Part shown: one piece after another, positions 44,462 to 53,702 of the stretch
Position numbering within the stretch: the stretch's first letter is position 1
Layout: each line of letters begins with the position of its first letter
Assembly (NCBI GenBank): GCA_944393235.1
Contig: CALXZJ010000005.1
Coordinates: 214 to 64,213 of the forward strand
Origin: an uncultured Alphaproteobacteria bacterium
Lineage (GTDB): Bacteria; Pseudomonadota; Alphaproteobacteria; RF32; CAG-239
Reading direction: 5' to 3'
Length of the DNA stretch: 64,000 nt
The notes under the pieces: generated by a model
What the model was told of the DNA's origin: nothing
Database searches by the model: none
What the model saw: the letters and a program-made list of their open reading frames with translations, nothing else
Made by a program: the position numbers and the translations under genes

Positions 44462-45307
44462 ATGAAATATCCATTGTATGAAAAAGCGAAAGAATTATTA
44501 TATTCCGAATATCATAAAAATTTTGAAATTGTCAAAGACAGTCCGTATCACAAACGGTATGTTGATGAAAAAATCAGACATTCTTTGCAGGTTTCCGGCG
44601 CCGGAAACGGTATCTTAAAACATGAAGCATATTTCCAAAATCGTTCGTCGGAATTTATTGATATTGCTAAAACAGCTATCTTATTGCATGATATTTTCAG
44701 ATTTAGCGAAGTGCGCATTTTGTATGAAAGCGGTGAAAGAATTGACCACGGTGTCAGGGGGTCGGAATTTCTGCAACAATTTCCGGAATTTAACAATATT
44801 CTGATTACTTTGCCGATTAAACATCATGGTCACATGATTGAAGCGCTTTATGAAGATGAACAATATCAGAACATTAAAGATGAACAACTTAAAGAAGATG
44901 TCAAACATATTGCCTTTGCCGTGCGCGATGCTGATAAAATTGCCAACTGGCAAATTGTTACTCAAGAATTTGATTTTGTGAAAAAAGTATGGTTGCCTTT
45001 TCCGGAAGATGATTCGAAAGAACAAGGCATTATACCGCCGGAAGCTTGGGCGTATTTTGCAAAACATGAAATTGTTCCGCATGGTGTGGTAAAAGTTAAG
45101 ACAAATGCCAGTGAAGCGTTGTCGATGTTATGCTGGTTGTTTGATATAAATTATCAATATTCGGTTTATTATTGTTGTCGTCTAGATTTGTTTAGCGGAT
45201 TTTTGCGGCTGTTTAAACAAATTAAAGTTGATGAAGAAAATATTTCTGCCATTAAAGAAATTGTGCAAGATTATTGCAAGCAAAAATTTAATATGGATAT
45301 TTTGTGA
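44462..45307 (+). CDS. HD-domain phosphohydrolase (YfbR / 5'-deoxynucleotidase-like), AT-rich gene
   Basis: H..HD..H..HH..D motif set (RHSLQV, LLHDIF, DHGVRG, KHHGH, RDADKI). 281 aa. Confidence 0.6.
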   Translation: MKYPLYEKAKELLYSEYHKNFEIVKDSPYHKRYVDEKIRHSLQVSGAGNGILKHEAYFQNRSSEFIDIAKTAILLHDIFRFSEVRILYESGERIDHGVRGSEFLQQFPEFNNILITLPIKHHGHMIEALYEDEQYQNIKDEQLKEDVKHIAFAVRDADKIANWQIVTQEFDFVKKVWLPFPEDDSKEQGIIPPEAWAYFAKHEIVPHGVVKVKTNASEALSMLCWLFDINYQYSVYYCCRLDLFSGFLRLFKQIKVDEENISAIKEIVQDYCKQKFNMDIL

Positions 45308-45311
45308 TATG

Positions 45312-45345
45312 AAAAAGCCCCGTTTTAACGGGGCTTGAATTTTTA
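45312..45345. terminator. Bidirectional terminator between the HD gene and nusG
   Basis: Hairpin aaagccccg-ttttaa-cggggcttt. Confidence 0.6.
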
Positions 45346-45879
45346 TGCTTTGACTTTTTCCACTTGGGAAAATTCCAGCTCAACCGGCGTGTAACGGCCG
45401 AAAATAGAAACCGAAACTTTCAAACGTGATTTTTCGCTGTCAACTTCTTCAACCACGCCGACAAAAGAGGCAAACGGACCATCGGTGACGCGGATTTGCT
45501 CGCCGATTTCAAAATCAACCACGGTTTGCGGACGTTCAATACCTTCTTCCATTTGTTTGATAATGCGTTCAGCCTCGGCATCGCTGATTGGCTGCGGTTT
45601 GTTGCGGCTGCCTAAAAACCCGCTGACGCGTGGCGTGTTTTTAACCACATGCCAACATTCGTCCGACATTTCCATTTTAACCAAAATATAGCCGGGGAAA
45701 AACTTGTGTTCAGCATTGACTTTGGCGCCTTTTTTGATTTCCACCACTTTTTCGGTCGGAACCAAAACGTCCAAAATCTTATCTTCCATTTTTTTCAAAA
45801 CGGCTTGTTCTTTCAAAGATTCCGCAACCTTTTTTTCTGATCCGGAATAAACGTTAACGACATACCAGCGTGCGGCCAT
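45343..45879 (-). CDS. nusG: Transcription termination/antitermination factor NusG
   Basis: 178 aa with NGN and KOW domains. MAARWYVVNVYSGSEKKV. Confidence 0.9.
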   Translation of the reverse strand: MAARWYVVNVYSGSEKKVAESLKEQAVLKKMEDKILDVLVPTEKVVEIKKGAKVNAEHKFFPGYILVKMEMSDECWHVVKNTPRVSGFLGSRNKPQPISDAEAERIIKQMEEGIERPQTVVDFEIGEQIRVTDGPFASFVGVVEEVDSEKSRLKVSVSIFGRYTPVELEFSQVEKVKA

Positions 45880-45882
45880 AAC

Positions 45883-46077
45883 TTATGCTCCCAAACCCAA
45901 GATTAAGCGGACAGCCCAACCTAAAATGACGTCAACAAAAAAGAAAAATATGGCAGCAATTGCCACAATGATGATAACCATCGCGCTGACGTGCGAAACT
46001 TCTTTTTTGGTCGGCCAGGTAATCTTTTTGACTTCTTGACGAACCTGTCTGAAAAACTGTATCGGACTGACTTTCAC
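45883..46077 (-). CDS. secE: Preprotein translocase subunit SecE (single-TM form)
   Basis: VKKITWPTKKEVSHVSAMVII aligns with the E. coli SecE C-terminal segment. A TTGACA-17-TATTGT candidate promoter lies about 120 bp upstream. Confidence 0.75.
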   Translation of the reverse strand: MKVSPIQFFRQVRQEVKKITWPTKKEVSHVSAMVIIIVAIAAIFFFFVDVILGWAVRLILGLGA

Positions 46078-46263: not shown

Positions 46264-47433
46264 TTAACTTCCGGTTTGCTTTTGTTGATGAAAATCTCTT
46301 GCTACAAGAAAAATTTCTTCTCTGAATTTTTTGCCGTTTTGTTTCATTTTGGCAAAAGCAATGGTTTCTTTTTGCCGCATTATCGGGTCATCACTTAATA
46401 TTAAAGTTTCAATCGGGGGTAAAGGAGTGAAGCCGGTATCTTGCAACAATGAATTTTTTATGCCGTTTTTCAGAATGGTTTTGGAAAAATGTGCCAATAG
46501 TTTTCCATTTGGCGTTTGTTCGTGGCCATTAAACGAAACATTGTTATGTTCATTTCCATTAATCAAGACCGGACCACAATCTGTCCATTTATATTTTTGC
46601 TTAACTAGAAATAGGTTTCCTTGTTTGCCCGGGAAATAACATGGTTTTAAGTCAAACCAACGGTTGTTTTTTATTTTGTCGGCATCTTTATCTTCTTCGG
46701 CATAAAAACGACGTATTTCTTCCCTTTTTCGCATATTAATGTAATGGTCAAAAAAATTGCCTTTTTGCGGTATACCGTAATCATAAGCTGATTGGAAACT
46801 GACGAACTGGGATTTGGATATTCCCAAAGGACATGCCGGCGCAAGTGCGACAATAAGCAATTGCGATTGTATCTTTTTTCTATCTTGTTCGCTATATCCC
46901 AACTCTTTCATGGCGGCTTGCATTTTTTCTTCTAATTTTAAAGCTGTATAAGCACCATGGCAATGTGCAACGATGTTTAATTTTCTTATTCTTTTGCAAG
47001 CCTCCTCGGTGGCTAATTTCCCTTTTTTGTTGTGCAAGGTTATGCGCGGCAATATGGCCTTTTCAAACAGTTCATCTACATATTTAGGATTATGTTCCTC
47101 ATCGGTTGCTTCTGATAAAGTGTTATCAATTTTGGTATTTTCTACCAAAACTTCCGTATGATGTTTGATGTTAGCAACTTTTCTGGCAACTGACTTTTTG
47201 TGTCCTTGGAAATCATATTTAATGCTGTAGACCGGAATATCGGGATTTATTTCGCTTAGTATCTCATTTTTAATAATCTTGGCGTATCCGTTGGCAGCTT
47301 CATCTGAAGTGGCGCCGTCACCGCCTAGATAAAGCACGCAAACCTCATCTTTAGGAATAGAATCAACTTTCACATAGCCATAAGGATTATCTTCTGTTTT
47401 ATCGGTTCTCTTTCCAATTTCTATTGATGACAT
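46264..47433 (-). CDS. Hypothetical protein, possible alpha/beta-hydrolase fold with a Cys nucleophile
   Basis: VLYLGGDGAT (oxyanion-hole-like) and a nucleophile-elbow-like NIVAHCHGAYTAL (Sm-x-Cys-x-Sm). AT-rich. Sits between secE and the island attL. Confidence 0.4.
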   Translation of the reverse strand: MSSIEIGKRTDKTEDNPYGYVKVDSIPKDEVCVLYLGGDGATSDEAANGYAKIIKNEILSEINPDIPVYSIKYDFQGHKKSVARKVANIKHHTEVLVENTKIDNTLSEATDEEHNPKYVDELFEKAILPRITLHNKKGKLATEEACKRIRKLNIVAHCHGAYTALKLEEKMQAAMKELGYSEQDRKKIQSQLLIVALAPACPLGISKSQFVSFQSAYDYGIPQKGNFFDHYINMRKREEIRRFYAEEDKDADKIKNNRWFDLKPCYFPGKQGNLFLVKQKYKWTDCGPVLINGNEHNNVSFNGHEQTPNGKLLAHFSKTILKNGIKNSLLQDTGFTPLPPIETLILSDDPIMRQKETIAFAKMKQNGKKFREEIFLVARDFHQQKQTGS

Positions 47434-47587
47434 CGCTTAGTTCCTTAAATACAGCCACAACTCTATTAGATATATCATAAATATGCACCAAAATCAATAT
47501 ATTTAGATCTTTGAACACGTCTTACGTCTGCCTGATTAAGCGCTTGTTTTAAAAAGAAAAAGACGCTTTCAGCGTCTTCATCTTGAG

Positions 47588-47604
47588 TGGCAGGGGCAGT
47601 AAGA
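47588..47604. repeat. attL: 17-bp direct repeat identical to the tRNA-Trp 3' end
   Basis: tggcaggggcagtaaga, exact match to 53627-53643. Confidence 0.65.
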
Positions 47605-48005
47605 CCCCCTGCTATATTTTCTATAACTCATTGTTATAAAATTTTATTTTTTTCAAAATAAAGCCATTTTTACACATCTTGTGTAACACCATAATGAACA
47701 CCTTATACCCCTTCATTTCCAAAGCGTCAAGAGCAAATTTTCAATATAAAATTTCACAATTACAAAATTTAATTGATAAAGAATAAATAAAATTGAGTAT
47801 TTTATTTTTGTATTTTGGCCAGAATATGAAGTAAAATATCTCTGTGCTGATGATTTTATGGAATGTCAATCATCAGCAGACATTCCAAATAAAAGATTTA
47901 TTGCGATGGTGTTGTTTATTCGCCCATACAAGATAAATCTTCAAAAAAACTACAAACAAGCGATAAACCATCGCTATTATAAACTATTACCCAAAGGAAA
48001 TTATT

Positions 48006-48416
48006 ATGAAAATATTTATGACATTTAACCCACATATAGAAAATTTATCACAAAGAAATTTAATGATAAATTTTAGAAAATCACTTCAAAAATATTATAG
48101 AAAAACACTTGGCTCACGCTATTATAAACACAAAGACAAACAATATCAAATAGGTGTGTTTCAAGAAGTAGGGTCTAGGGACTTCAAACAACCACATTTA
48201 CATATCATCATTGATTTACCACTAAACAAGGTCAAAGAACTACACCACTTTTTAAGTAACGACCTTAAAAACATTTATCCATCACTAACCACAGATTGCC
48301 AAATTATCAAATCTGGCAAATATGACGAGCAAAATGTTTATGCTTATTGCCTAAAAGAGGGGCAATCTATCACGACAAATTCAGACCTATATTTGCCAAT
48401 TACAGATTTTAATTGA
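48006..48416 (+). CDS. Small HUH-endonuclease (Rep-like) protein
   Basis: Motif I-like FMTFNP, motif II HLHIIID (HUH), motif III YAYCLKEG (YxxK). AAGGAAA RBS. 136 aa. Confidence 0.45.
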   Translation: MKIFMTFNPHIENLSQRNLMINFRKSLQKYYRKTLGSRYYKHKDKQYQIGVFQEVGSRDFKQPHLHIIIDLPLNKVKELHHFLSNDLKNIYPSLTTDCQIIKSGKYDEQNVYAYCLKEGQSITTNSDLYLPITDFN

Positions 48417-48439
48417 TAAATACATAAAAAGGAGAATAT

Positions 48440-48913
48440 ATGAATTTAGAGAAAAACGCCATAAATGACCGCATAGAAGCAATAATGAAAGATAATAAGG
48501 TAATCAACGACAAATTAAAATATACCTCACCAGAGAGCTTAAAAAAGGCGTTAAAAGATAAAAAAGCCAAAAACATCGACGAATTACGCAAAGAAAGAAC
48601 TAAACGCTATAATTTAGAGCAAGAAGAAGATGCCGAATTTATTAGAGAATGCTGTCAATATCTTCAAAAATTAGGGATAGTAAAAAGTCAAAGGCAATTC
48701 AGCCAGCAATTTTTAGAAAAAAGCCAAGATTATTTGGGTATGTTGATTTGTGAAAGAAGACAACCACCAATTAACATTTTACACCGACTTATTCAAAATT
48801 TGATTCAAATTCAGCCAATTTATGAAGAAAAATATACCATCAGCAATTATTTAGATATGTTAATTAACCGAGGTAATCAAATAATCACAAAAAAATTACT
48901 AAAATATCTATAA
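48440..48913 (+). CDS. Putative HTH DNA-binding regulator
   Basis: C-terminal HTH-like segment SQRQFSQQFLEKSQDYLGMLICERRQPP. Coiled-coil N-terminus. AAGGAG RBS. Confidence 0.45.
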   Translation: MNLEKNAINDRIEAIMKDNKVINDKLKYTSPESLKKALKDKKAKNIDELRKERTKRYNLEQEEDAEFIRECCQYLQKLGIVKSQRQFSQQFLEKSQDYLGMLICERRQPPINILHRLIQNLIQIQPIYEEKYTISNYLDMLINRGNQIITKKLLKYL

Positions 48914-48982
48914 TTAACACCTACTTTTGATTTTTGTTAATTGATGAATTTTGATTTTTATAAAAAAAATTAAGGATTGAAA

Positions 48983-49168
48983 ATGGAAATAATCAGAGCA
49001 TATCAGCAACTAATGACACATAATAAAAAATATTCATATCTACAAAGCGATGGTAAAATAGTGTTTAATCAAAATTGGGCTTGGATTGTAGTATTCCAAG
49101 CACTAAACAAACACAATTTCGCCATTGTTAAATTTTTTAATGGTTGTTATTCCATAGTTGAAATTTAG
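48983..49168 (+). CDS. Small hypothetical protein (61 aa)
   Basis: AAGGA RBS before ATG (MEIIRAYQQ). Confidence 0.3.
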   Translation: MEIIRAYQQLMTHNKKYSYLQSDGKIVFNQNWAWIVVFQALNKHNFAIVKFFNGCYSIVEI

Positions 49169-49242
49169 AAATTTAATCTCTTTTATTTTTTGTAAAACGA
49201 TGATACAATAAATTCATAATTAGTTCATTAAGGAGAATAATT

Positions 49243-49803
49243 ATGTCAAATGACAGAGATAATCAATTACGACAGTTAAGAGGATTAGAGACAACAAGCG
49301 AGCATAGAGCATGTTTTGATGAATTTGGCAGGATTATCAGAGAAAACAAACCTAAAAAGAACAAAATAACATATCAGGTTGAAAATGATGCTAAAATAGA
49401 GTTAGTTCTTGATGAACACACAAAGACCTGTATGGTAAAATGTCAAAATAAAATGTATCCATTATTTGATGAACAAAACGGCAAGGCAGAGTTTGTTGAT
49501 AATACAGGAAAAACTATTGATTATGATTCACGAATTCCTGTCAAAGAAGGGGAAGAACCTATTAGAGAAGAAATAAATGGAAAATCCATAATTAAATTTG
49601 GAAAGAATCACGAATATACAATCCCTTTTGAAAGCCAAAATGGTGAATATTATACTCAAATGAAATATGAAAAAGGAGGAACAATAAATATTGATTTCCC
49701 AGGACAAACAGGGTTTAAAAATGAACTAAATAAACATAAAAACACGGCATTAGATGCTATGTTCGCAGCAAAAATTAGAGAAGCAATGAAACGCCAATCT
49801 TAA
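49243..49803 (+). CDS. Hypothetical island cargo protein (186 aa)
   Basis: AAGGAG RBS. No recognisable motif. Confidence 0.4.
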   Translation: MSNDRDNQLRQLRGLETTSEHRACFDEFGRIIRENKPKKNKITYQVENDAKIELVLDEHTKTCMVKCQNKMYPLFDEQNGKAEFVDNTGKTIDYDSRIPVKEGEEPIREEINGKSIIKFGKNHEYTIPFESQNGEYYTQMKYEKGGTINIDFPGQTGFKNELNKHKNTALDAMFAAKIREAMKRQS

Positions 49804-49847
49804 ATCTAACTTTTACTAAAAAAATATATCATCAAAAGGAAAAAATC

Positions 49848-50372
49848 ATGAAACTCTATCACTATATCGCAAAACCCAATACAGCATTAAAAGAAGGGAT
49901 TTTATCATTTGCTAAAAACAAATATGCTGATTTGAATTATTATTATAAACGTAGCGGAGAAACAACTCACGATGGTATTGTAAAATGGATGGAAAGCTGT
50001 TTTGAAGGACGTAGTCGCGGGATACGAGGATTTTCCGAACCAGTTAAATGGACAGACAAAAGCTTATCACTAAAAGATTTTATTGATAATGCAGATATGT
50101 TTTCAATTGATTTAGATGCACTACATAAAGATGGTTTAATAGAAGCTGTATATTTTAGCCCCTCTGTTATGAATGTCCCCACAATGAAAGAAGCAAGGGA
50201 CTGTGATGAACTTCTGATAAAATTATATGATTATACAGAAATAAGTAGCAAACCTATTGATTGGAATGTGTGTAATGATGAATTAGGTCGTCGCTTTGCA
50301 TATGTTCCTTATTATATCATTATCATAAAAGGGGGTGTTATACCGCCTAAATATATAACAAAAGAAAATTAG
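49848..50372 (+). CDS. Hypothetical island cargo protein (174 aa)
   Basis: AAAGGAAAA RBS. No recognisable motif. Confidence 0.4.
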   Translation: MKLYHYIAKPNTALKEGILSFAKNKYADLNYYYKRSGETTHDGIVKWMESCFEGRSRGIRGFSEPVKWTDKSLSLKDFIDNADMFSIDLDALHKDGLIEAVYFSPSVMNVPTMKEARDCDELLIKLYDYTEISSKPIDWNVCNDELGRRFAYVPYYIIIIKGGVIPPKYITKEN

Positions 50373-50418
50373 TATAGAAACATCTAATTCTTAAAACAAA
50401 AGGCGGTTTAAATCCGCC

Positions 50419-50967
50419 TTATTTTTCGATATAACTATATACAGTTGGTCTTGTTATTTCAAATTTTCTCGCAATTTCAGCAACGGCAACACCATTTTTA
50501 TATAAATTGTTTAATTCTATTACTTGTTCATCAGATAATTTATTTTTACCACCTTTATATTTTCCTTTCGCTTTTGCCAAAGCGACACCTTCTCTAACTC
50601 TATCATTGATTAAAGAACGCTCCAAAGAACTAACAGCAGCTAACATCGTCATCATCATTTCTTGATATGGGTCTTTTTTATCTGGCGAGAAAGTTAAATT
50701 TTCTTTATGGAACTTAATTGTTGCTCCAATATTGTTTATTTCTTCAACAATATTTAACAAATCACGAGTATTTCTCGCCAATCTATCCATAGAATGAACA
50801 TTAACAACATCACCGGCACGCAAATTTGACAACATTGCTTCTAATTGAGGACGCTCTCTATTTTTACCAGATAATTTATCTTCATATTCTCTATCACAAG
50901 GAACATCAATTAACTGTCTTTCGGTAGATTGGATTAAAGTTGAAACTCTTTTATAATTAAAAATCAT
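50419..50967 (-). CDS. Serine recombinase (resolvase/DNA invertase family)
   Basis: N-terminal YKRVSTLIQ catalytic Ser motif and a C-terminal HTH (VAEIARKFEITRPTVYSYIEK). 182 aa. Confidence 0.85.
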   Translation of the reverse strand: MIFNYKRVSTLIQSTERQLIDVPCDREYEDKLSGKNRERPQLEAMLSNLRAGDVVNVHSMDRLARNTRDLLNIVEEINNIGATIKFHKENLTFSPDKKDPYQEMMMTMLAAVSSLERSLINDRVREGVALAKAKGKYKGGKNKLSDEQVIELNNLYKNGVAVAEIARKFEITRPTVYSYIEK

Positions 50968-51020
50968 TTTTAAAATTCCTTAAATGTAAAATCAATATCT
51001 TTAATATGACTTTACAATAT

Positions 51021-51073
51021 ATAAAAAGTGTAAAATTGTCAAGTATTTTATGTTAGATTTTACACTTTTTTAT
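51021..51073. promoter_or_regulatory. Inverted-repeat site immediately upstream of the serine recombinase gene
   Basis: 16-bp arms ataaaaagtgtaaaat / attttacactttttat (one extra T), separated by 20 bp. Confidence 0.35.
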
Positions 51074-51271
51074 AATTAAATTTGATTATAGTTTAATTTT
51101 ACAAGCACTTGAGCAACTTTTGAATAATCAGATTTAACAAAAAAGCATAATAAAACTATAATATAACTATTCTTTAACCATATATGTGTATAAAACTAAT
51201 ACAATAATTGACATTAAAAATATAATATATCCATAATTTAACATCATTAACATATATACGGAGAATAAAAA

Positions 51272-51724
51272 ATGGCTGAAAATTCTAATTCAAACAATAA
51301 AAAAACAACATTAAACTTCACAGGTCTTGATATGAATGTAGAAAAAGCAAATGTTTTTAACGCAAAAGTTAATTCAATCAAGGCAAAAATCGCCGATAGT
51401 ATTCAAAAAAATCTCAATTATGAAAACAGTATCGAAAATAAATCTGCTCCAGCATCTCAATTATCGCCATCTATGCGTATTTTGAAGGATAGCGGAGATT
51501 ACACTGTAATTACCTTGCGTTGCGGTGCTTATCCAATTTTTAAGAACACAACTAAAAAAAGCGAATACACACACACTAAAATTTTGTCTTCATTAAAATC
51601 AATGCTTGATGAAGGACAATTTGATGAAGAAATAAAGGCATACGCCAAGAAAAAACGCACCAGAAAATCAAACGAAGATGAAACAGAAGAAAATTCATCT
51701 AAAAACAAAACAAAGAAAAAATAA
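51272..51724 (+). CDS. Lys/Asn-rich hypothetical protein (150 aa)
   Basis: GGAG RBS. Basic C-terminal tail KKKRTRK...KNKTKKK suggests nucleic-acid binding. Confidence 0.4.
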   Translation: MAENSNSNNKKTTLNFTGLDMNVEKANVFNAKVNSIKAKIADSIQKNLNYENSIENKSAPASQLSPSMRILKDSGDYTVITLRCGAYPIFKNTTKKSEYTHTKILSSLKSMLDEGQFDEEIKAYAKKKRTRKSNEDETEENSSKNKTKKK

Positions 51725-51756
51725 TATATAATATTAAAGGGGGACAAATTCCCCCT

Positions 51757-53520
51757 TTATTTAATTTTATTTTTCGCTGCGATTTTATCAATATTCTTAT
51801 TTAAAAAAGGATATTTCAATTTAGATAATTCGCTATATAATTTTTTGATTGAAACATTACCGCCATAAGTCCGTTCTCCCTCATCATCACCAATCCATCC
51901 ACATAATAAATTTTGATATTCTTTTGAAATTCCGGCATCTCTCAAATAAGGTTTAACCGTATGACGGAACGAATGAAACACCTTTGAGCGACTATCTATC
52001 CCGATTTTTTTCAAATACCTACCAAACCATTGACTAATAGCCTGAATATAGTGATTTTTTACACTATAATTGAGTTGATAAAACAACCTGTCTTGATGTT
52101 TATTATTTACTTTAACCTCTCGAACTTTGTTAGCATATTCAATAATACCTAATTCAAGTAATTTCGAATGAATAGGCACCAATCTTTTTGATTGAGAATT
52201 TTTAATATGCTGGTCTTTTCGTTCATCTGATATATCAAAATACCATACACCTTTACTAACCTTTATATCATCAAGATATAATTGACAGATTTCGTTCAAC
52301 CTCATTCCAGAATACAAAGCCATCAATGGTATCCAATAACGATACGAATATTTTATATCCATAACACGAGGATATGTTAAAGGGTCAAAAATTTTCTTCA
52401 ATTCATCTTTTGTAAATGGCTCAATAGAAATAACCTCTTTTCTTTTGGTTATTTTGATATCGCCCTGAAAACTATCAGGAATATATCTATTGTCTTTACA
52501 GAATATCATAAATTCCTTGAAAATACGCAAATATTTTTTGACAGAACTCAAAGAAATAGCATCATCATTCTTTTTTGACAATAAATCTGATAATTTTTGC
52601 CCCTTATAGCGTTCTTTCCATTTTTTAGGTATATTATACACGCTACGCACCACCTTCTGACAATCCTTATATGTTATGCTCTCAACATACTTTTTACCAA
52701 TAATTTCAAAAATTGTTTCAAGGCACTGCTGATTTTGTCTGATGGTATTTTCACCTGTGCGATTATTAAATTTTTCCAAAGCAAACTCATCAAAAACTTT
52801 ACTCCAAAGAGTAGATACAGTCGGTCGCCTTGCTTTTTCATTCTGTTCAGCTTGTATAATATCCAAACATCTTTTGACTCTTGGGTTTATACTTCGGTCA
52901 AGTTCTATATTTTGCTCGATACAATGTATCTTATCTAAAATGTATTTCTCAACACCGGTAAGAGCCGTTTTTATTTTTCGAATATCTTCACTTGGATTTT
53001 GTTTATCCTCAATAACAGGAATTTTCTCTTTCTGAATTTTTTCTATTTGTTTCTTTAATGACTTGTGCGTTCTTTCATCATTTAAAGTGTCGTTGAAATA
53101 TTCATTTACAGCCAACTCTACACATTTTAATTCGTGTTGCTCTATATTTGCTTCGTCTGTGTCTCTGTTGAAAATAAGCATATCTTGATAATCAAATTTG
53201 CGATTCTCAATTTCATCAAAATAATTTTCAAATGTTTCTTCAACCAGCTTCAATTTATTGATAACTATTTTATCAATATCTTCGGAAGCAAATATTATCT
53301 GCTTATTTTTTATCTTCATATCCAGAGACCTCAATAGGTTAATCGCTATATCAACCTTATAACTCTCTTTTCTCACTTTTTCCAGTGCTTCATAGTAGTT
53401 ATTCGTCTTTAACGAATACCAGAACTGTGTTTTATGAGTTAAATACACCAAGCTATTAGGGATTCGTGCCCGTAAGTAGTATGTATGATTTCTGCGAACT
53501 AACCTATTATGCCCATTCAT
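51757..53520 (-). CDS. Tyrosine recombinase (phage-type integrase), 587 aa
   Basis: C-terminal catalytic region with HSFRHTV (HxxR) and a downstream Tyr. Adjacent to the tRNA-Trp 3' end. Confidence 0.85.
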   Translation of the reverse strand: MNGHNRLVRRNHTYYLRARIPNSLVYLTHKTQFWYSLKTNNYYEALEKVRKESYKVDIAINLLRSLDMKIKNKQIIFASEDIDKIVINKLKLVEETFENYFDEIENRKFDYQDMLIFNRDTDEANIEQHELKCVELAVNEYFNDTLNDERTHKSLKKQIEKIQKEKIPVIEDKQNPSEDIRKIKTALTGVEKYILDKIHCIEQNIELDRSINPRVKRCLDIIQAEQNEKARRPTVSTLWSKVFDEFALEKFNNRTGENTIRQNQQCLETIFEIIGKKYVESITYKDCQKVVRSVYNIPKKWKERYKGQKLSDLLSKKNDDAISLSSVKKYLRIFKEFMIFCKDNRYIPDSFQGDIKITKRKEVISIEPFTKDELKKIFDPLTYPRVMDIKYSYRYWIPLMALYSGMRLNEICQLYLDDIKVSKGVWYFDISDERKDQHIKNSQSKRLVPIHSKLLELGIIEYANKVREVKVNNKHQDRLFYQLNYSVKNHYIQAISQWFGRYLKKIGIDSRSKVFHSFRHTVKPYLRDAGISKEYQNLLCGWIGDDEGERTYGGNVSIKKLYSELSKLKYPFLNKNIDKIAAKNKIK

Positions 53521-53626
53521 CTAACTTTGCTCCTGTGATACACCTTGGTGATACACAGGCAAAAATGGCATTTTTTGTAAATATTAAAAAAAATTATAGC
53601 CCAACTTCAATGAGTTAGGCTAAATA

Positions 53627-53702
53627 TGGCAGGGGCAGTAAGATTCGAACTCACGACACTCGGTTTTGGAGACCGATGCTCTACCAACTGAGCTATACCC
53701 CT
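53627..53702 (-). tRNA. tRNA-Trp (anticodon CCA)
   Basis: Folded by hand. Acceptor AGGGGTA/TGCCCCT, D-stem GCTC/GAGC, anticodon stem TCGGT/ACCGA, loop CTCCAAA, T-loop TTCGAAT, CCA encoded. Closely resembles E. coli tRNA-Trp. Confidence 0.9.

What the first reader, a model, noticed from the sequence alone, without database searches (positions are those of the whole stretch)
47588..53643. About 6 kb AT-rich integrative element at the 3' end of tRNA-Trp, bounded by exact 17-bp direct repeats, displacing tRNA-Trp from secE-nusG
The 3'-terminal 17 nt of tRNA-Trp (tggcaggggcagtaaga on the + strand, 53627-43) recur exactly at 47588-604. Between the two copies lie a tyrosine integrase abutting the tRNA, a serine invertase/resolvase, a small HUH Rep-like protein, an HTH protein and five unknown ORFs. 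Each gene has a canonical RBS, and the DNA is visibly far more AT-rich than the flanking core genes. In related proteobacteria tRNA-Trp sits directly upstream of secE-nusG, but here secE has its own promoter and the tRNA lies about 7.5 kb away. There are no capsid, terminase, conjugation or lysis genes, so this is neither a prophage nor an ICE. It looks like a minimal integrative mobilizable or satellite-like element whose cargo is uncharacterised.
Basis: partly seen in the sequence, partly recalled or inferred. Interest (0 to 1): 0.75.

Follow-up and report, generated by a model that had tools for sequence, protein, structure and literature searches.

The report
Compact tRNA-integrating mobile element with Rep
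This is a real 6-kb mobile DNA element inserted at the end of a tRNA-Trp gene in an uncultured gut alphaproteobacterium. It belongs to a family I could not find described anywhere, whose members move between distantly related bacteria and carry exchangeable passenger genes, although how they travel from cell to cell is unknown.

Summary
tRNA-Trp lies at 53627-53702 (-). Its last 17 nt recur exactly once more, at 47588-47604. The 6,022 bp between the copies has 29% GC against 42% for the rest of the window.

Conspecific metagenome strains with 99.5% identical flanks lack the 6-kb segment, so it is a variable insertion. It is one member of a family of 5.7-7.6 kb elements in uncultured (largely human-gut) Alphaproteobacteria.

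- The gene order is fixed: 136-aa HUH Rep, DUF6626 protein, 61-aa protein, variable cargo slot, small serine recombinase, 150-aa protein, then a large DUF6538 tyrosine integrase next to a tRNA.
- Members sit at tRNA-Trp, tRNA-Ser or tRNA-Met. Each complete copy is bounded by a 17-21 bp repeat of the tRNA 3' end.
- Element DNA is about 97% identical between genomes whose flanks are about 70% identical, which indicates recent horizontal spread.

The Rep model has an HUH-nuclease fold. The cargo here is a two-gene module; its 174-aa protein has an ADP-ribosyltransferase-like fold (Tpt1/DarT-like).

No capsid, packaging, lysis or conjugation genes are present. No excised circle was found, and the transfer route is unknown. 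I rate it a new variant of a known kind (small integrative, probably mobilizable or replicative, island) of moderate interest.

The parts
47559..47579 (-). Intrinsic-terminator-like hairpin just outside the element. It is the original tRNA-Trp terminator, now separated from the tRNA (flank, not part of the element).
   Evidence: In element-free strains the equivalent sequence directly follows tRNA-Trp.
47588..47604 (.). Distal direct repeat (att site): the displaced copy of the last 17 nt of tRNA-Trp.
   Evidence: Exact, with only 2 copies in the window and 0 expected.
47606..47671 (.). Left terminal inverted-repeat region, a candidate integrase-binding site. Includes CCCCTGC and CAATGAGTTA (reverse strand).
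   Evidence: It pairs with 53561-53635 (I1 28 nt 82%, I2 30 nt 73%). The CAAT(G/A)nGTTA motif is inverted at both ends of every family member, whatever the tRNA target.
47757..47779 (+). 23-nt palindromic motif CAATTAcaaaattTAATTGATAA, copy 1, upstream of rep. Candidate Rep or HTH recognition site.
   Evidence: 2 copies in the window at up to 3 mismatches, 0 expected. The same pair flanks rep in L024.
48006..48416 (+). rep: a 136-aa stand-alone HUH nuclease (motifs FMTFNP, HLHII, YAYCLKE).
48397..48419 (+). 23-nt palindromic motif, copy 2. It overlaps the rep stop codon and lies just upstream of the DUF6626 gene.
48440..48913 (+). 157-aa DUF6626 protein, a backbone gene always found next to rep. 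Function unknown.
   Evidence: PF20331 E=2.4e-8, above its cut-off. Conserved at 89-93% nt in other members.
48983..49168 (+). 61-aa backbone protein of unknown function. Its last ~10 codons differ from other members because the cargo breakpoint lies at about 49133.
49243..49803 (+). Cargo gene 1: 186-aa protein with no family match.
   Evidence: Only 13 clusters of relatives. Paired with cargo gene 2 here and in the unrelated islands L039-L042.
49848..50372 (+). Cargo gene 2: 174-aa protein with an ADP-ribosyltransferase-superfamily fold (Tpt1/DarT-like).
50386..50420 (.). Right edge of the cargo slot: the ~34-nt remnant of the 3' end of a second resolvase gene, plus a bidirectional terminator hairpin.
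   Evidence: Alignment of slot borders; terminator scan.
50419..50967 (-). Small serine recombinase (resolvase/invertase type), 182 aa, with a C-terminal HTH_7.
   Evidence: PF00239 E=6e-33, PF02796 E=7.6e-6, phrog_125 E=5e-56. N-terminal YKRVST motif read from the sequence.
50984..51104 (.). Cluster of four (G/A/T)TGTAAAAT motifs (+,+,-,-), including GTGTAAAAT-N20-ATTTTACAC. Candidate res/operator for the serine recombinase; it overlaps a promoter-like site.
   Evidence: 4 of the window's 33 matches fall within 121 nt. Promoter-like TTGACA-17-TATTGT at 51042-51014.
51272..51724 (+). 150-aa backbone protein with a lysine-rich tail. It is the most conserved gene of the family; function unknown.
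   Evidence: The identical protein is seen on 55 contigs. It is 100% identical in 2 GTDB species-representative genomes and 98-99% identical at 3 further loci.
51735..51759 (.). Bidirectional terminator hairpin between the 150-aa gene and the integrase gene.
51757..53520 (-). Tyrosine integrase, 587 aa: N-terminal DUF6538, a SAM-like domain and the catalytic domain.
   Evidence: PF00589 E=5e-12, PF20172 E=5.8e-12, phrog_1 E=1.6e-26. Catalytic-motif residues (GMRLNE, HSFRHT, GW, RTY) read from the sequence.
53561..53626 (.). Right terminal inverted-repeat region. It contains CAATGAGTTA and a terminator-like hairpin (53622-53597, minus strand) that now follows tRNA-Trp.
53627..53702 (-). tRNA-Trp(cca). 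Its 3'-terminal 17 nt (53627-53643) form the proximal direct repeat.

Best explanation
The segment 47588-53643 is an intact, recently acquired integrative element that cannot transfer by itself.

Integration (the anatomy is shown; the activity is inferred). The 587-aa tyrosine integrase recombined a circular form of the element with the 3' end of tRNA-Trp. The element carries its own copy of the last 17 nt of the tRNA and its own terminator, so the tRNA stays intact and the old 3' end is left as the distal repeat. Imperfect inverted repeats just inside both ends are the likely integrase-binding sites.

After excision (inferred). I propose that the circle is copied by the 136-aa HUH Rep, probably as a dimer, by nick-and-prime rolling-circle replication. 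The likely start is in the non-coding left arm, where a 23-nt palindromic motif flanks rep. The small serine recombinase, with its upstream cluster of TGTAAAAT sites, would then resolve multimers and regulate itself.

Cargo. Between the 61-aa gene and the recombinase gene lies a slot where passenger genes are exchanged by ordinary recombination. Here the slot holds a two-gene module whose 174-aa product has an ADP-ribosyltransferase-like fold and probably acts in host or phage conflict.

Transfer. The element has no transfer or packaging genes and must be moved between cells by something else.
For: Insertion and mobility
- Exact 17-bp repeat at the tRNA 3' end.
- Integrase lies next to the tRNA.
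- Presence/absence polymorphism between strains with 99.5% identical flanks.
- Composition is foreign: GC 0.294 against 0.420.

Family-level evidence
- The same gene order is found at tRNA-Trp, tRNA-Ser(tga), tRNA-Met and tRNA-Ser(gga), always with the integrase adjacent to the tRNA.
- Every complete copy is bounded by a 17-21 bp repeat of the tRNA end and measures 5.7-7.6 kb.
- One MAG holds two copies, at different tRNAs.
- Element blocks are 96-97.5% identical between genomes whose flanks are 69-73% identical or not alignable.
- Inverted CAAT(G/A)nGTTA motifs occur at both ends of all members.

Rep
- Invariant HUH and Tyr residues, with HUH N-terminal to the Tyr.
- Confident model whose best structural match is SIRV1 ORF119, followed by other HUH nucleases.
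- Viral Rep matches in BFVD.
- 8 of 23 relatives hit PF23343 and none hits the IS200 transposase family.
- The 23-nt motif occurs twice, flanking rep, with 0 expected.

Accessory recombinase
- In distant members its place is taken by a small 190-aa tyrosine recombinase. That fits a generic housekeeping role such as multimer resolution.
- No orientation variants appeared among about 15 copies.

Cargo slot
- Sharp conservation borders with at least four different contents.

No transfer or virion genes.
Against: - No excised circle or attP junction was seen. Contigs of about 6 kb turned out to be integrated copies, and the attP 29-mer is absent from the two collections that could be scanned.
- No excisionase was recognised.
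- The window's Rep scores below Pfam's cut-off for PF23343 (20.5 against 27.8 bits), and no nick site has been identified.
- Members at tRNA-Ser(tga) lack rep altogether and are still about 97% identical across species. Rep is therefore dispensable for maintenance and perhaps for spread.
- The 23-nt palindrome could equally be an operator for an HTH protein.
- The recombinase's best PHROG match is 'DNA invertase', so an inversion switch is not excluded.
Confidence: 0.6

Rival explanations
1. It is a classical integrative mobilizable element. The HUH protein acts not as a replication initiator but as a relaxase that nicks an oriT in the left arm, and the element is transferred as single-stranded DNA through the type IV secretion system of a co-resident conjugative element.
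For: The element has an integrase but no transfer genes. It spreads horizontally between divergent hosts. Rep-like proteins are documented as relaxases of IMEs in streptococci (PMC7563843, abstract seen). A hairpin-like 23-nt motif lies next to rep.
Against: The HUH motif precedes the catalytic Tyr, as in Rep proteins and unlike classical HUH relaxases (plus general knowledge). There is no MOB-family, coupling-protein or T4SS hit in the element. Rep-less members also spread. No conjugative helper was identified.
Confidence: 0.2
2. It is a satellite of a phage, most plausibly of a filamentous or other ssDNA phage. Rep produces single-stranded circles that a helper virion packages, as with the Vibrio satellites RS1 and TLC.
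For: The family's only sequence-family signal is to PF23343, the plectrovirus ORF2 / inovirus gpII replication-protein family. Structural matches include microvirus and CRESS Reps. The element is small and has no virion genes.
Against: There are no relatives in 50,697 phage records or in IMG/VR. No coat, Zot-like ATPase, packaging-redirection or helper-sensing gene was recognised. The element uses its own integrase and a tRNA site rather than dif. No helper phage is known for these hosts.
Confidence: 0.1
3. It is an inert remnant: a decayed prophage or island that is no longer mobile, with repeats and composition left over from an old insertion.
For: No excised form was observed. The same tRNA-Trp site carries several short remnants in other strains.
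Against: All eight genes are intact, and the repeats are exact. Presence/absence differs among 99.5% identical strains. The compact architecture is conserved in many genomes and at four tRNA targets. Element identity of 97% against about 70% for flanks shows recent movement.
Confidence: 0.05

Closest known systems
Integrative mobilizable elements (IMEs) and small tRNA-targeting genomic islands, e.g. Bacteroides NBU1 and streptococcal IMEs
   Same: A tyrosine integrase next to a tRNA 3' end, short direct repeats, a size of a few kb, no conjugation machinery, accessory cargo, and dependence on something else for transfer.
   Different: No recognisable relaxase or oriT. A Rep-type 136-aa HUH nuclease, DUF6626, a DUF6538 integrase and an extra small recombinase form a backbone for which I found no description (searches returned no papers) and no match in the phage or plasmid collections.
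Actinomycete integrative elements of the pSAM2 type (AICEs)
   Same: They integrate at a tRNA gene with a tyrosine integrase and, after excision, replicate by rolling circle with an HUH Rep (own knowledge; AICE survey PMC3218068 listed).
   Different: AICEs carry an FtsK-like TraB and spread genes and are self-transmissible. This family has none, is half the size, occurs in Alphaproteobacteria, and its Rep is only a bare nuclease domain.
SIRV1 ORF119 Rep (PDB 2x3g) and other minimal HUH nucleases
   Different: The SIRV1 protein serves a linear archaeal virus genome (own knowledge). Here the protein sits in a bacterial integrative element, and there is no detectable sequence homology to any PDB chain.
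Filamentous-phage satellites RS1 and TLC of Vibrio cholerae
   Same: Few-kb integrated elements that encode a gpII-like HUH Rep and small proteins but no virion genes (own knowledge). The weak PF23343 signal points to the same Rep class.
   Different: Those elements integrate at dif using host XerCD. This family has its own integrase, targets tRNAs, has an added serine recombinase and a cargo slot, and no helper is known.
Tycheposons of Prochlorococcus
   Same: tRNA-targeting tyrosine-recombinase elements with exchangeable cargo. Several tRNA hot spots exist per genome, and some have replication genes (own knowledge; not tested here).
   Different: No shared protein families were tested or found. 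The backbone here is much smaller and includes an HUH Rep and a serine recombinase.

Membership tests
tRNA-targeting tyrosine-integrase integrative element (genomic island) | Tyrosine recombinase with a catalytic domain, encoded at the edge next to the tRNA | tested here: met
   PF00589 E=5e-12, phrog_1 E=1.6e-26. The gene ends 106 nt from the tRNA. R, HxxR, W and Y motifs read from the sequence.
tRNA-targeting tyrosine-integrase integrative element (genomic island) | Direct repeats that duplicate the tRNA 3' end and leave the tRNA intact | tested here: met
   Exact 17-mer twice. tRNA scores 68.3 bits in Rfam. The same holds for 7 other family members, with 17-21 bp repeats.
tRNA-targeting tyrosine-integrase integrative element (genomic island) | Presence/absence polymorphism at the same site in close relatives | tested here: met
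   L001, L002, L003, L007, L012 and L015 lack it with 99.1-99.6% identical flanks. L004, L011 and L026 carry it.
tRNA-targeting tyrosine-integrase integrative element (genomic island) | Excision to a circle with attP and a restored attB | tested here: inconclusive
   The attP 29-mer is not in JGI metagenome contigs or IMG/VR. Contigs of about 6 kb are integrated copies. The source reads could not be searched.
Integrative mobilizable element (IME) | Own relaxase and/or oriT recognised by a helper conjugation system | tested here: inconclusive
   No MOB or relaxase family hit. The only candidate is the Rep-type HUH protein, and no oriT was identified.
Integrative mobilizable element (IME) | No mating-pair-formation or coupling-protein genes | tested here: met
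   None among the 8 genes.
ICE / AICE | Type IV secretion system or FtsK-like TraB translocase | tested here: not met
   No such domain in any product.
Prophage | Capsid, terminase, portal, tail or lysis genes | tested here: not met
   PHROGs gives only integrase and invertase categories, plus weak hits to families of unknown function.
Phage satellites (P4-like, PICI, PLE, RS1/TLC) | Helper-dependent packaging functions or a known satellite replication/regulation module; occurrence in viral fractions | tested here: not met
   No matching PHROG or Pfam family. Absent from phage records and IMG/VR. Helper dependence itself could not be tested.
HUH endonuclease superfamily, Rep class | HUH metal-binding motif and a catalytic Tyr C-terminal to it | tested here: met
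   H64, H66 and Y114 are invariant in 23 relatives, as are T6 and P9 of motif I.
HUH endonuclease superfamily, Rep class | HUH-nuclease fold | tested here: met
HUH endonuclease superfamily, Rep class | Membership of a curated Rep family (PF23343 REP_ORF2-G2P) at its gathering score | tested here: not met
   20.5 bits against a cut-off of 27.8 for the window protein. 8 of 23 relatives match at E<0.01, best 6.7e-7.
HUH endonuclease superfamily, Rep class | Cognate origin with a nick site; nicking-joining activity | not testable with these tools
   Only a candidate exists: the 23-nt palindromic motif found twice, flanking rep.
IS200/IS605 Y1 transposase | Y1_Tnp family match and multiple dispersed copies flanked by subterminal hairpins | tested here: not met
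   No Y1_Tnp hit in 23 relatives. The gene always sits at the same place in the element, next to DUF6626. There is a single copy in the window.
Small serine recombinases (resolvase/invertase) | Resolvase catalytic domain with an N-terminal Ser, plus a C-terminal HTH | tested here: met
   PF00239 E=6e-33, PF02796 E=7.6e-6. YKRVST at residues 5-10.
DNA invertase switch (Hin/Gin type) | Two inverted crossover sites that flank a segment found in both orientations | tested here: not met
   Only weak AT-rich inverted repeats. All of about 15 family copies have the same orientation. A cluster of four sites upstream looks res-like or operator-like.
ADP-ribosyltransferase superfamily (Tpt1/KptA, DarT), for the 174-aa cargo protein | ART fold | tested here: met
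ADP-ribosyltransferase superfamily (Tpt1/KptA, DarT), for the 174-aa cargo protein | Sequence-family membership and the catalytic motif (R-H-R-R of Tpt1, or the NAD-binding and catalytic Glu of DarT) | tested here: inconclusive
   No Pfam, NCBIfam or PADLOC hit and no PDB sequence hit. H5, R35, R55, R60 and E64 are invariant, but they were not mapped onto catalytic positions.
DarTG-type toxin-antitoxin | Adjacent macrodomain antitoxin | tested here: not met
   The upstream 186-aa protein has no macrodomain or other hit. Most of the >432 clusters of 174-aa relatives have no such partner, since the partner family has only 13 clusters. A paralog stands alone in L001.

The most novel reading that the evidence does not exclude
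These elements may be a so-far undescribed class of minimal integrative rolling-circle episomes of gut Alphaproteobacteria.

- They pair a bare 136-aa dimeric HUH nuclease (most like the archaeal-virus SIRV1 Rep) with swappable tRNA-specific integrases and a housekeeping recombinase.
- They move between genera without any transfer genes of their own, for instance by hijacking a gene-transfer agent, a filamentous phage or a conjugative system.
- They ferry conflict and surface genes: an ART-fold enzyme, outer-membrane beta-barrels, ankyrin proteins and restriction-modification systems.
- Rep-less members with a conserved 500-nt non-coding replacement would then be parasites of the Rep-encoding ones.
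Probability: 0.3. Interest if true: 0.6.

Novelty: new variant of a known kind. Interest (0 to 1): 0.45.

Why it matters
Uncultured gut Alphaproteobacteria have no genetic tools, and their mobile elements are almost unknown.

- **Possible tools.** A compact 6-kb element with a defined attachment site, a self-contained integrase and a natural cargo slot could become an integration vector, once excision and integration are shown.
- **Horizontal gene flow.** Element identity of about 97% in genomes that are about 70% identical elsewhere shows active gene flow between these lineages through a vehicle that standard prophage, plasmid, ICE and defence-island searches do not flag.
- **Cargo.** The passenger genes point to functions in phage or host conflict that can be tested: an ADP-ribosyltransferase-like enzyme whose domain also occurs in large multidomain proteins, outer-membrane proteins and ankyrin proteins.

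The basic principle, a tyrosine-integrase island at a tRNA gene, is long established. The gain is a new family and not a new mechanism.

Tried and rejected
- **Excised circle.** I looked up contigs of about element size that carry the integrase or Rep (L043 6,044 nt, L051 6,860 nt, L053 5,930 nt). All are integrated copies in other host contexts, with no terminal overlap. An exact attP junction 29-mer was absent from JGI metagenome contigs and IMG/VR.
- **Clean empty site.** Not found. Every element-free strain has another occupant at the site.
- **Known phage or plasmid relatives.** tblastn of Rep and the DUF6626 protein against 50,697 phage and 72,556 plasmid records gave nothing except one marginal Azospirillum hit. 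The Rep profile has no relative in IMG/VR.
- **Defence system.** PADLOC gave only HTH noise.
- **Non-coding RNA.** Rfam found only the tRNA in the element and nothing in the 500-nt non-coding block of Rep-less members. That block folds no better than shuffles (z = 0.73).
- **Site-specific cargo cassettes (integron-like).** Rejected. Slot breakpoints differ between members, and the window keeps a 34-nt stub of a displaced resolvase gene.
- **Invertible segment.** No convincing inverted crossover sites and no orientation variants.
- **IS200-like reading of rep plus its flanking hairpins.** Rejected (fixed position).
- **PDB sequence searches.** Searches for Rep, the 174-aa, DUF6626 and 150-aa proteins gave nothing.
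- **Other.** The afdb50 fold library was unavailable. A tmRNA-like reading of the repeated unit in L008, L013 and L019 was not supported by ARAGORN.

Full report
**1. The observation**

ARAGORN places tRNA-Trp(cca) at 53627-53702 on the minus strand. The 17-mer TGGCAGGGGCAGTAAGA, which is the reverse complement of the last 17 nt of that tRNA including CCA, occurs at 53627-53643 and at 47588-47604. It occurs nowhere else in the 64 kb even with two mismatches allowed, and none is expected in shuffled sequence.

The 6,022 bp between the copies has 29.4% GC. The rest of the window has 42.0%, and the lowest other 6-kb stretch has 38.6%. Third-position GC is 24.8% for the eight internal genes against 42.2% for eight flanking genes.

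**2. Gene content**

Reading left to right:
- 48006-48416 (+): 136-aa protein with motifs FMTFNP, HLHII and YAYCLKE.
- 48440-48913 (+): 157-aa DUF6626 protein.
- 48983-49168 (+): 61-aa protein.
- 49243-49803 (+): 186-aa protein.
- 49848-50372 (+): 174-aa protein.
- 50419-50967 (-): 182-aa serine recombinase (PF00239 6e-33, HTH_7, phrog_125 'DNA invertase').
- 51272-51724 (+): 150-aa lysine-rich protein.
- 51757-53520 (-): 587-aa tyrosine integrase (DUF6538 plus PF00589), ending 106 nt from the tRNA.

No product matches a capsid, terminase, tail, lysis, conjugation or known defence family. Terminator-like hairpins separate the convergent gene pairs at 50400-50420 and 51735-51759. One hairpin (53622-53597) follows the tRNA inside the element. 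Another (47579-47559) lies just outside the distal repeat, where the tRNA's own terminator would have been before insertion.

**3. Is it an insertion?**

Exact-sequence look-ups of the two flanking proteins recovered metagenome contigs of the same species.
- L004, L011 and L026 carry the element at 99.7-100% identity.
- L001, L002, L003, L007, L012 and L015 have flanks 99.1-99.6% identical to the window but lack the 6 kb.

In the element-free strains the tRNA is followed directly by a terminator-like sequence equivalent to window 47508-47587, that is, an unoccupied attachment site for this element. Beyond it lies a different 790-bp cassette, carrying a 66%-identical paralog of the 174-aa gene. 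The cassette is bounded by a 55-bp repeat made of 9 nt of the tRNA end plus 46 nt of the terminator region.

Other strains carry yet other inserts at the same place: L008, L013, L016 and L019. The 3' end of tRNA-Trp is therefore a hot spot with at least five states in one species, and the 6-kb element is one variable occupant. I did not see a completely empty site.

**4. A family**

The identical 150-aa protein is encoded on dozens of contigs. Its neighbourhoods and a scan of GTDB species-representative genomes show the same gene order in other chromosomal contexts: Rep, DUF6626, 61 aa, a variable stretch, serine recombinase, 150 aa, integrase.
- The integrase always lies next to a tRNA: tRNA-Trp, tRNA-Ser(tga), tRNA-Met or tRNA-Ser(gga).
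- Every complete copy is bounded by a 17-21 bp repeat of that tRNA's 3' end and measures 5.7-7.6 kb.
- One MAG (BRZ_SN bin90) holds two copies, at different tRNAs.
- Hosts are labelled 'uncultured Alphaproteobacteria bacterium', and several related contigs are labelled human gut metagenome.
- Members whose Rep is only 46% identical keep the plan, but a 190-aa tyrosine recombinase replaces the serine recombinase/150-aa pair. One larger island combines the Rep with ankyrin proteins, a type I restriction-modification system and a P4-type integrase.

**5. Evidence of recent movement**

L033 and L034 come from different species whose syntenic flanks are 69-73% identical. Their element right blocks are 97.5% identical. 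L031 and L033 share 96-97% identical element DNA in unrelated flanks. The family has therefore crossed between well-diverged hosts recently.

**6. Modular structure**

Against the window, other members are 89-96% identical over 48398-49133 (DUF6626, 61 aa) and over 50386/50419-51733 (recombinase, 150 aa). Rep and the integrase are more divergent or replaced.

The stretch 49134-50385 is a cargo slot. It holds one of the following:
- the 186+174-aa pair (window, L023);
- a 225-aa gene (L024);
- a 357-aa gene (L027);
- an outer-membrane beta-barrel gene plus a second resolvase (L022, L033, L034, L037).

The slot borders are not a single precise site. The window retains the last ~34 nt of the displaced second-resolvase gene, and its 61-aa gene has a different tail. 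Cargo is therefore exchanged by general or illegitimate recombination between conserved flanks and not by a cassette mechanism.

**7. The ends**

Just inside the repeats lie imperfect inverted repeats: 47606-47633 with 53608-53635, and 47642-47671 with 53561-53590. In a circularised element they would give this dyad:

CAATGAGTTA...GCAGGGG-CAGTAAGA-CCCCTGC...TAACTCATTG

The motif CAAT(G/A)nGTTA is present, inverted, at both ends of all members regardless of tRNA target. That is what one expects of binding sites for the conserved part of the integrases. I inferred this role; I did not test it.

**8. The Rep**

Forty-nine clusters of relatives exist, nearly all about 136 aa. T6, P9, H64, H66 and Y114 are invariant.
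- The AlphaFold model is confident (pLDDT 88).
- Foldseek against viral models returns a rudivirus protein plus microvirus and CRESS-virus Reps.
- Eight of 23 relatives hit Pfam PF23343 (plectrovirus ORF2 / inovirus gpII replication proteins). None hits the IS200 transposase family. The window protein itself is below the curated cut-off.

HUH precedes the Tyr, as in Rep proteins. From my own knowledge, the SIRV1 protein is a dimeric nick-joining enzyme with one Tyr per subunit, and the same is the most economical reading here.

A 23-nt palindromic motif (CAATTA-N7-TAATTG-ATAA) occurs twice, flanking rep, with none expected by chance. The same pair flanks rep in L024. It may be the Rep recognition site or an operator.

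**9. Rep-less members**

The tRNA-Ser(tga) elements lack rep. In its place is about 500 nt of conserved non-coding DNA with no ORF. The same DNA is found upstream of a truncated DUF6626 gene in unrelated islands. It has no Rfam match and no unusual fold stability. These members are nevertheless about 97% identical across species. Rep is therefore not needed for maintenance in the chromosome, and possibly not for spread if it is supplied in trans.

**10. The serine recombinase**

Four (G/A/T)TGTAAAAT motifs (+,+,-,-) cluster at 50984-51104, directly upstream of the gene. They include a perfect 9-bp inverted pair 20 bp apart that overlaps a promoter-like site. The whole 64 kb has only 33 such matches.

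No orientation variants of any segment were seen among about 15 copies. A small tyrosine recombinase occupies the equivalent place in distant members. I therefore favour multimer resolution and autoregulation over an inversion switch, without proof.

**11. The cargo**

The 174-aa protein has more than 432 clusters of close relatives, all about 174 aa and, where named, from Alphaproteobacteria MAGs.
- Its model is very confident (pLDDT 94).
- No sequence family matches it.
- A profile search finds the domain inside 500-1300-aa proteins that also carry GNAT, HD, type IB topoisomerase or S41 peptidase domains. From my own knowledge, that pattern resembles the large multidomain proteins of phages and conjugative elements.
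- The 186-aa partner has only 13 clusters of relatives and no annotation. The pair recurs in other islands next to a Cap4-type nuclease, RloB and a kinase-containing operon.

A role in phage or host conflict is plausible, but the substrate is unknown. It is not a DarTG system, because there is no macrodomain partner.

**12. What it is not**

It is not a prophage or an ICE, because there are no virion or transfer genes. It is not demonstrably a satellite: there are no relatives in phage records or IMG/VR and no known satellite modules. It is not an IS200-type element. It is not a defence island by PADLOC.

**13. Synteny claim**

secE (45883-46077) and nusG (45343-45879) lie 1.5 kb from the distal repeat. 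A 389-aa gene with no family match and low GC (0.369) sits between them in all strains. A related species (nusG 81% identical) has secE-nusG, two small genes, a family member and then tRNA-Trp. The tRNA-Trp / secE neighbourhood is thus ancestral in this group, but it is interrupted by more than the element.

**14. Verdict**

The element is an intact member of a family that I could not find described. I found no paper mentioning DUF6626 or DUF6538 and no match in the curated phage or plasmid collections.

In principle it is a familiar kind of thing: a tyrosine-integrase island at a tRNA gene that depends on outside help for transfer. Its closest working analogues are IMEs and the pSAM2-type integrative rolling-circle replicons. 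Its particular backbone is new: a bare HUH Rep, DUF6626, an accessory recombinase, exchangeable integrases and a cargo slot.

Three things remain open and are directly testable: excision, the role of Rep, and above all the route of transfer. Interest is moderate.

Noticed in passing
L001 9042-9835 (also L002, L003, L007, L012, L015); the site corresponds to window 47588/53627: Strains that lack the 6-kb element carry a 790-bp cassette at the same tRNA-Trp site. It holds a stand-alone paralog (66% aa identity) of the 174-aa ART-fold cargo gene and is bounded by a 55-bp direct repeat made of 9 nt of the tRNA end plus 46 nt of the terminator region. In the contigs seen, the element and the cassette never occur together.
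   Followed up: partly
L008 1-800; L013 6829-7020; L019 1814-1995: Further occupants of the tRNA-Trp site contain a ~95-170-nt unit that again ends in CCTGCCA (the tRNA terminus) and includes a GTGAGTTCGA fragment of the T-arm. The unit is present twice in L008. These look like nested remnants of earlier insertions. ARAGORN calls no tRNA or tmRNA there.
   Followed up: partly
L022 6292-6788 (also L025, L031, L033, L034; 81% identical in L039 9976-10469): In Rep-less family members the rep gene is replaced by about 500 nt of conserved, relatively GC-rich non-coding DNA, always upstream of a DUF6626 gene. It has no ORF above 56 aa, no Rfam match, and a fold z-score of 0.73. A ~35-nt piece of it (GGGAAACAGnCnnTTTGACA...) also occurs in the L001-type cassette.
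   Followed up: partly
window 46264-47433 (-): A 389-aa gene lies between the attachment site and secE. It has no Pfam or NCBIfam match and low GC (0.369, GC3 0.328), and it is present in all conspecific strains. It may be an older acquisition at the same hot spot.
   Followed up: no
window 44462-45879: nusG is not followed by the usual rplK-rplA genes. Instead a low-GC HD-domain gene (44462-45307, +) converges on it, sharing a bidirectional terminator at 45315-45336.
   Followed up: no
L039-L042 (e.g. L039 3425-8230): The 186/187-aa plus 174-aa gene pair also occurs in larger islands. There it is preceded by a resolvase, a Cap4-type nuclease and RloB, and followed by 424-aa, 165-aa and APH/choline-kinase-like genes. 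An ankyrin protein and a truncated DUF6626 gene lie nearby.
   Followed up: no
P0304, P0337, P0339, P0343, P0351, P0378: The 174-aa ART-fold domain is embedded in 800-1300-aa proteins together with GNAT acetyltransferase, HD, type IB topoisomerase and DUF5662 domains.
   Followed up: partly
L032 and L034 (CALXTE01, BRZ_SN bin90): One MAG carries two family members, one at tRNA-Trp and one at tRNA-Ser(tga). Their integrases differ but their recombinase/150-aa blocks are nearly identical.
   Followed up: partly
L022 7641-9140; L037 4218-5719: In several members the cargo is an outer-membrane beta-barrel gene (Opacity/Surface_Ag_2-like) next to a second serine recombinase gene. That second gene converges on the backbone recombinase and shares its terminator.
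   Followed up: no
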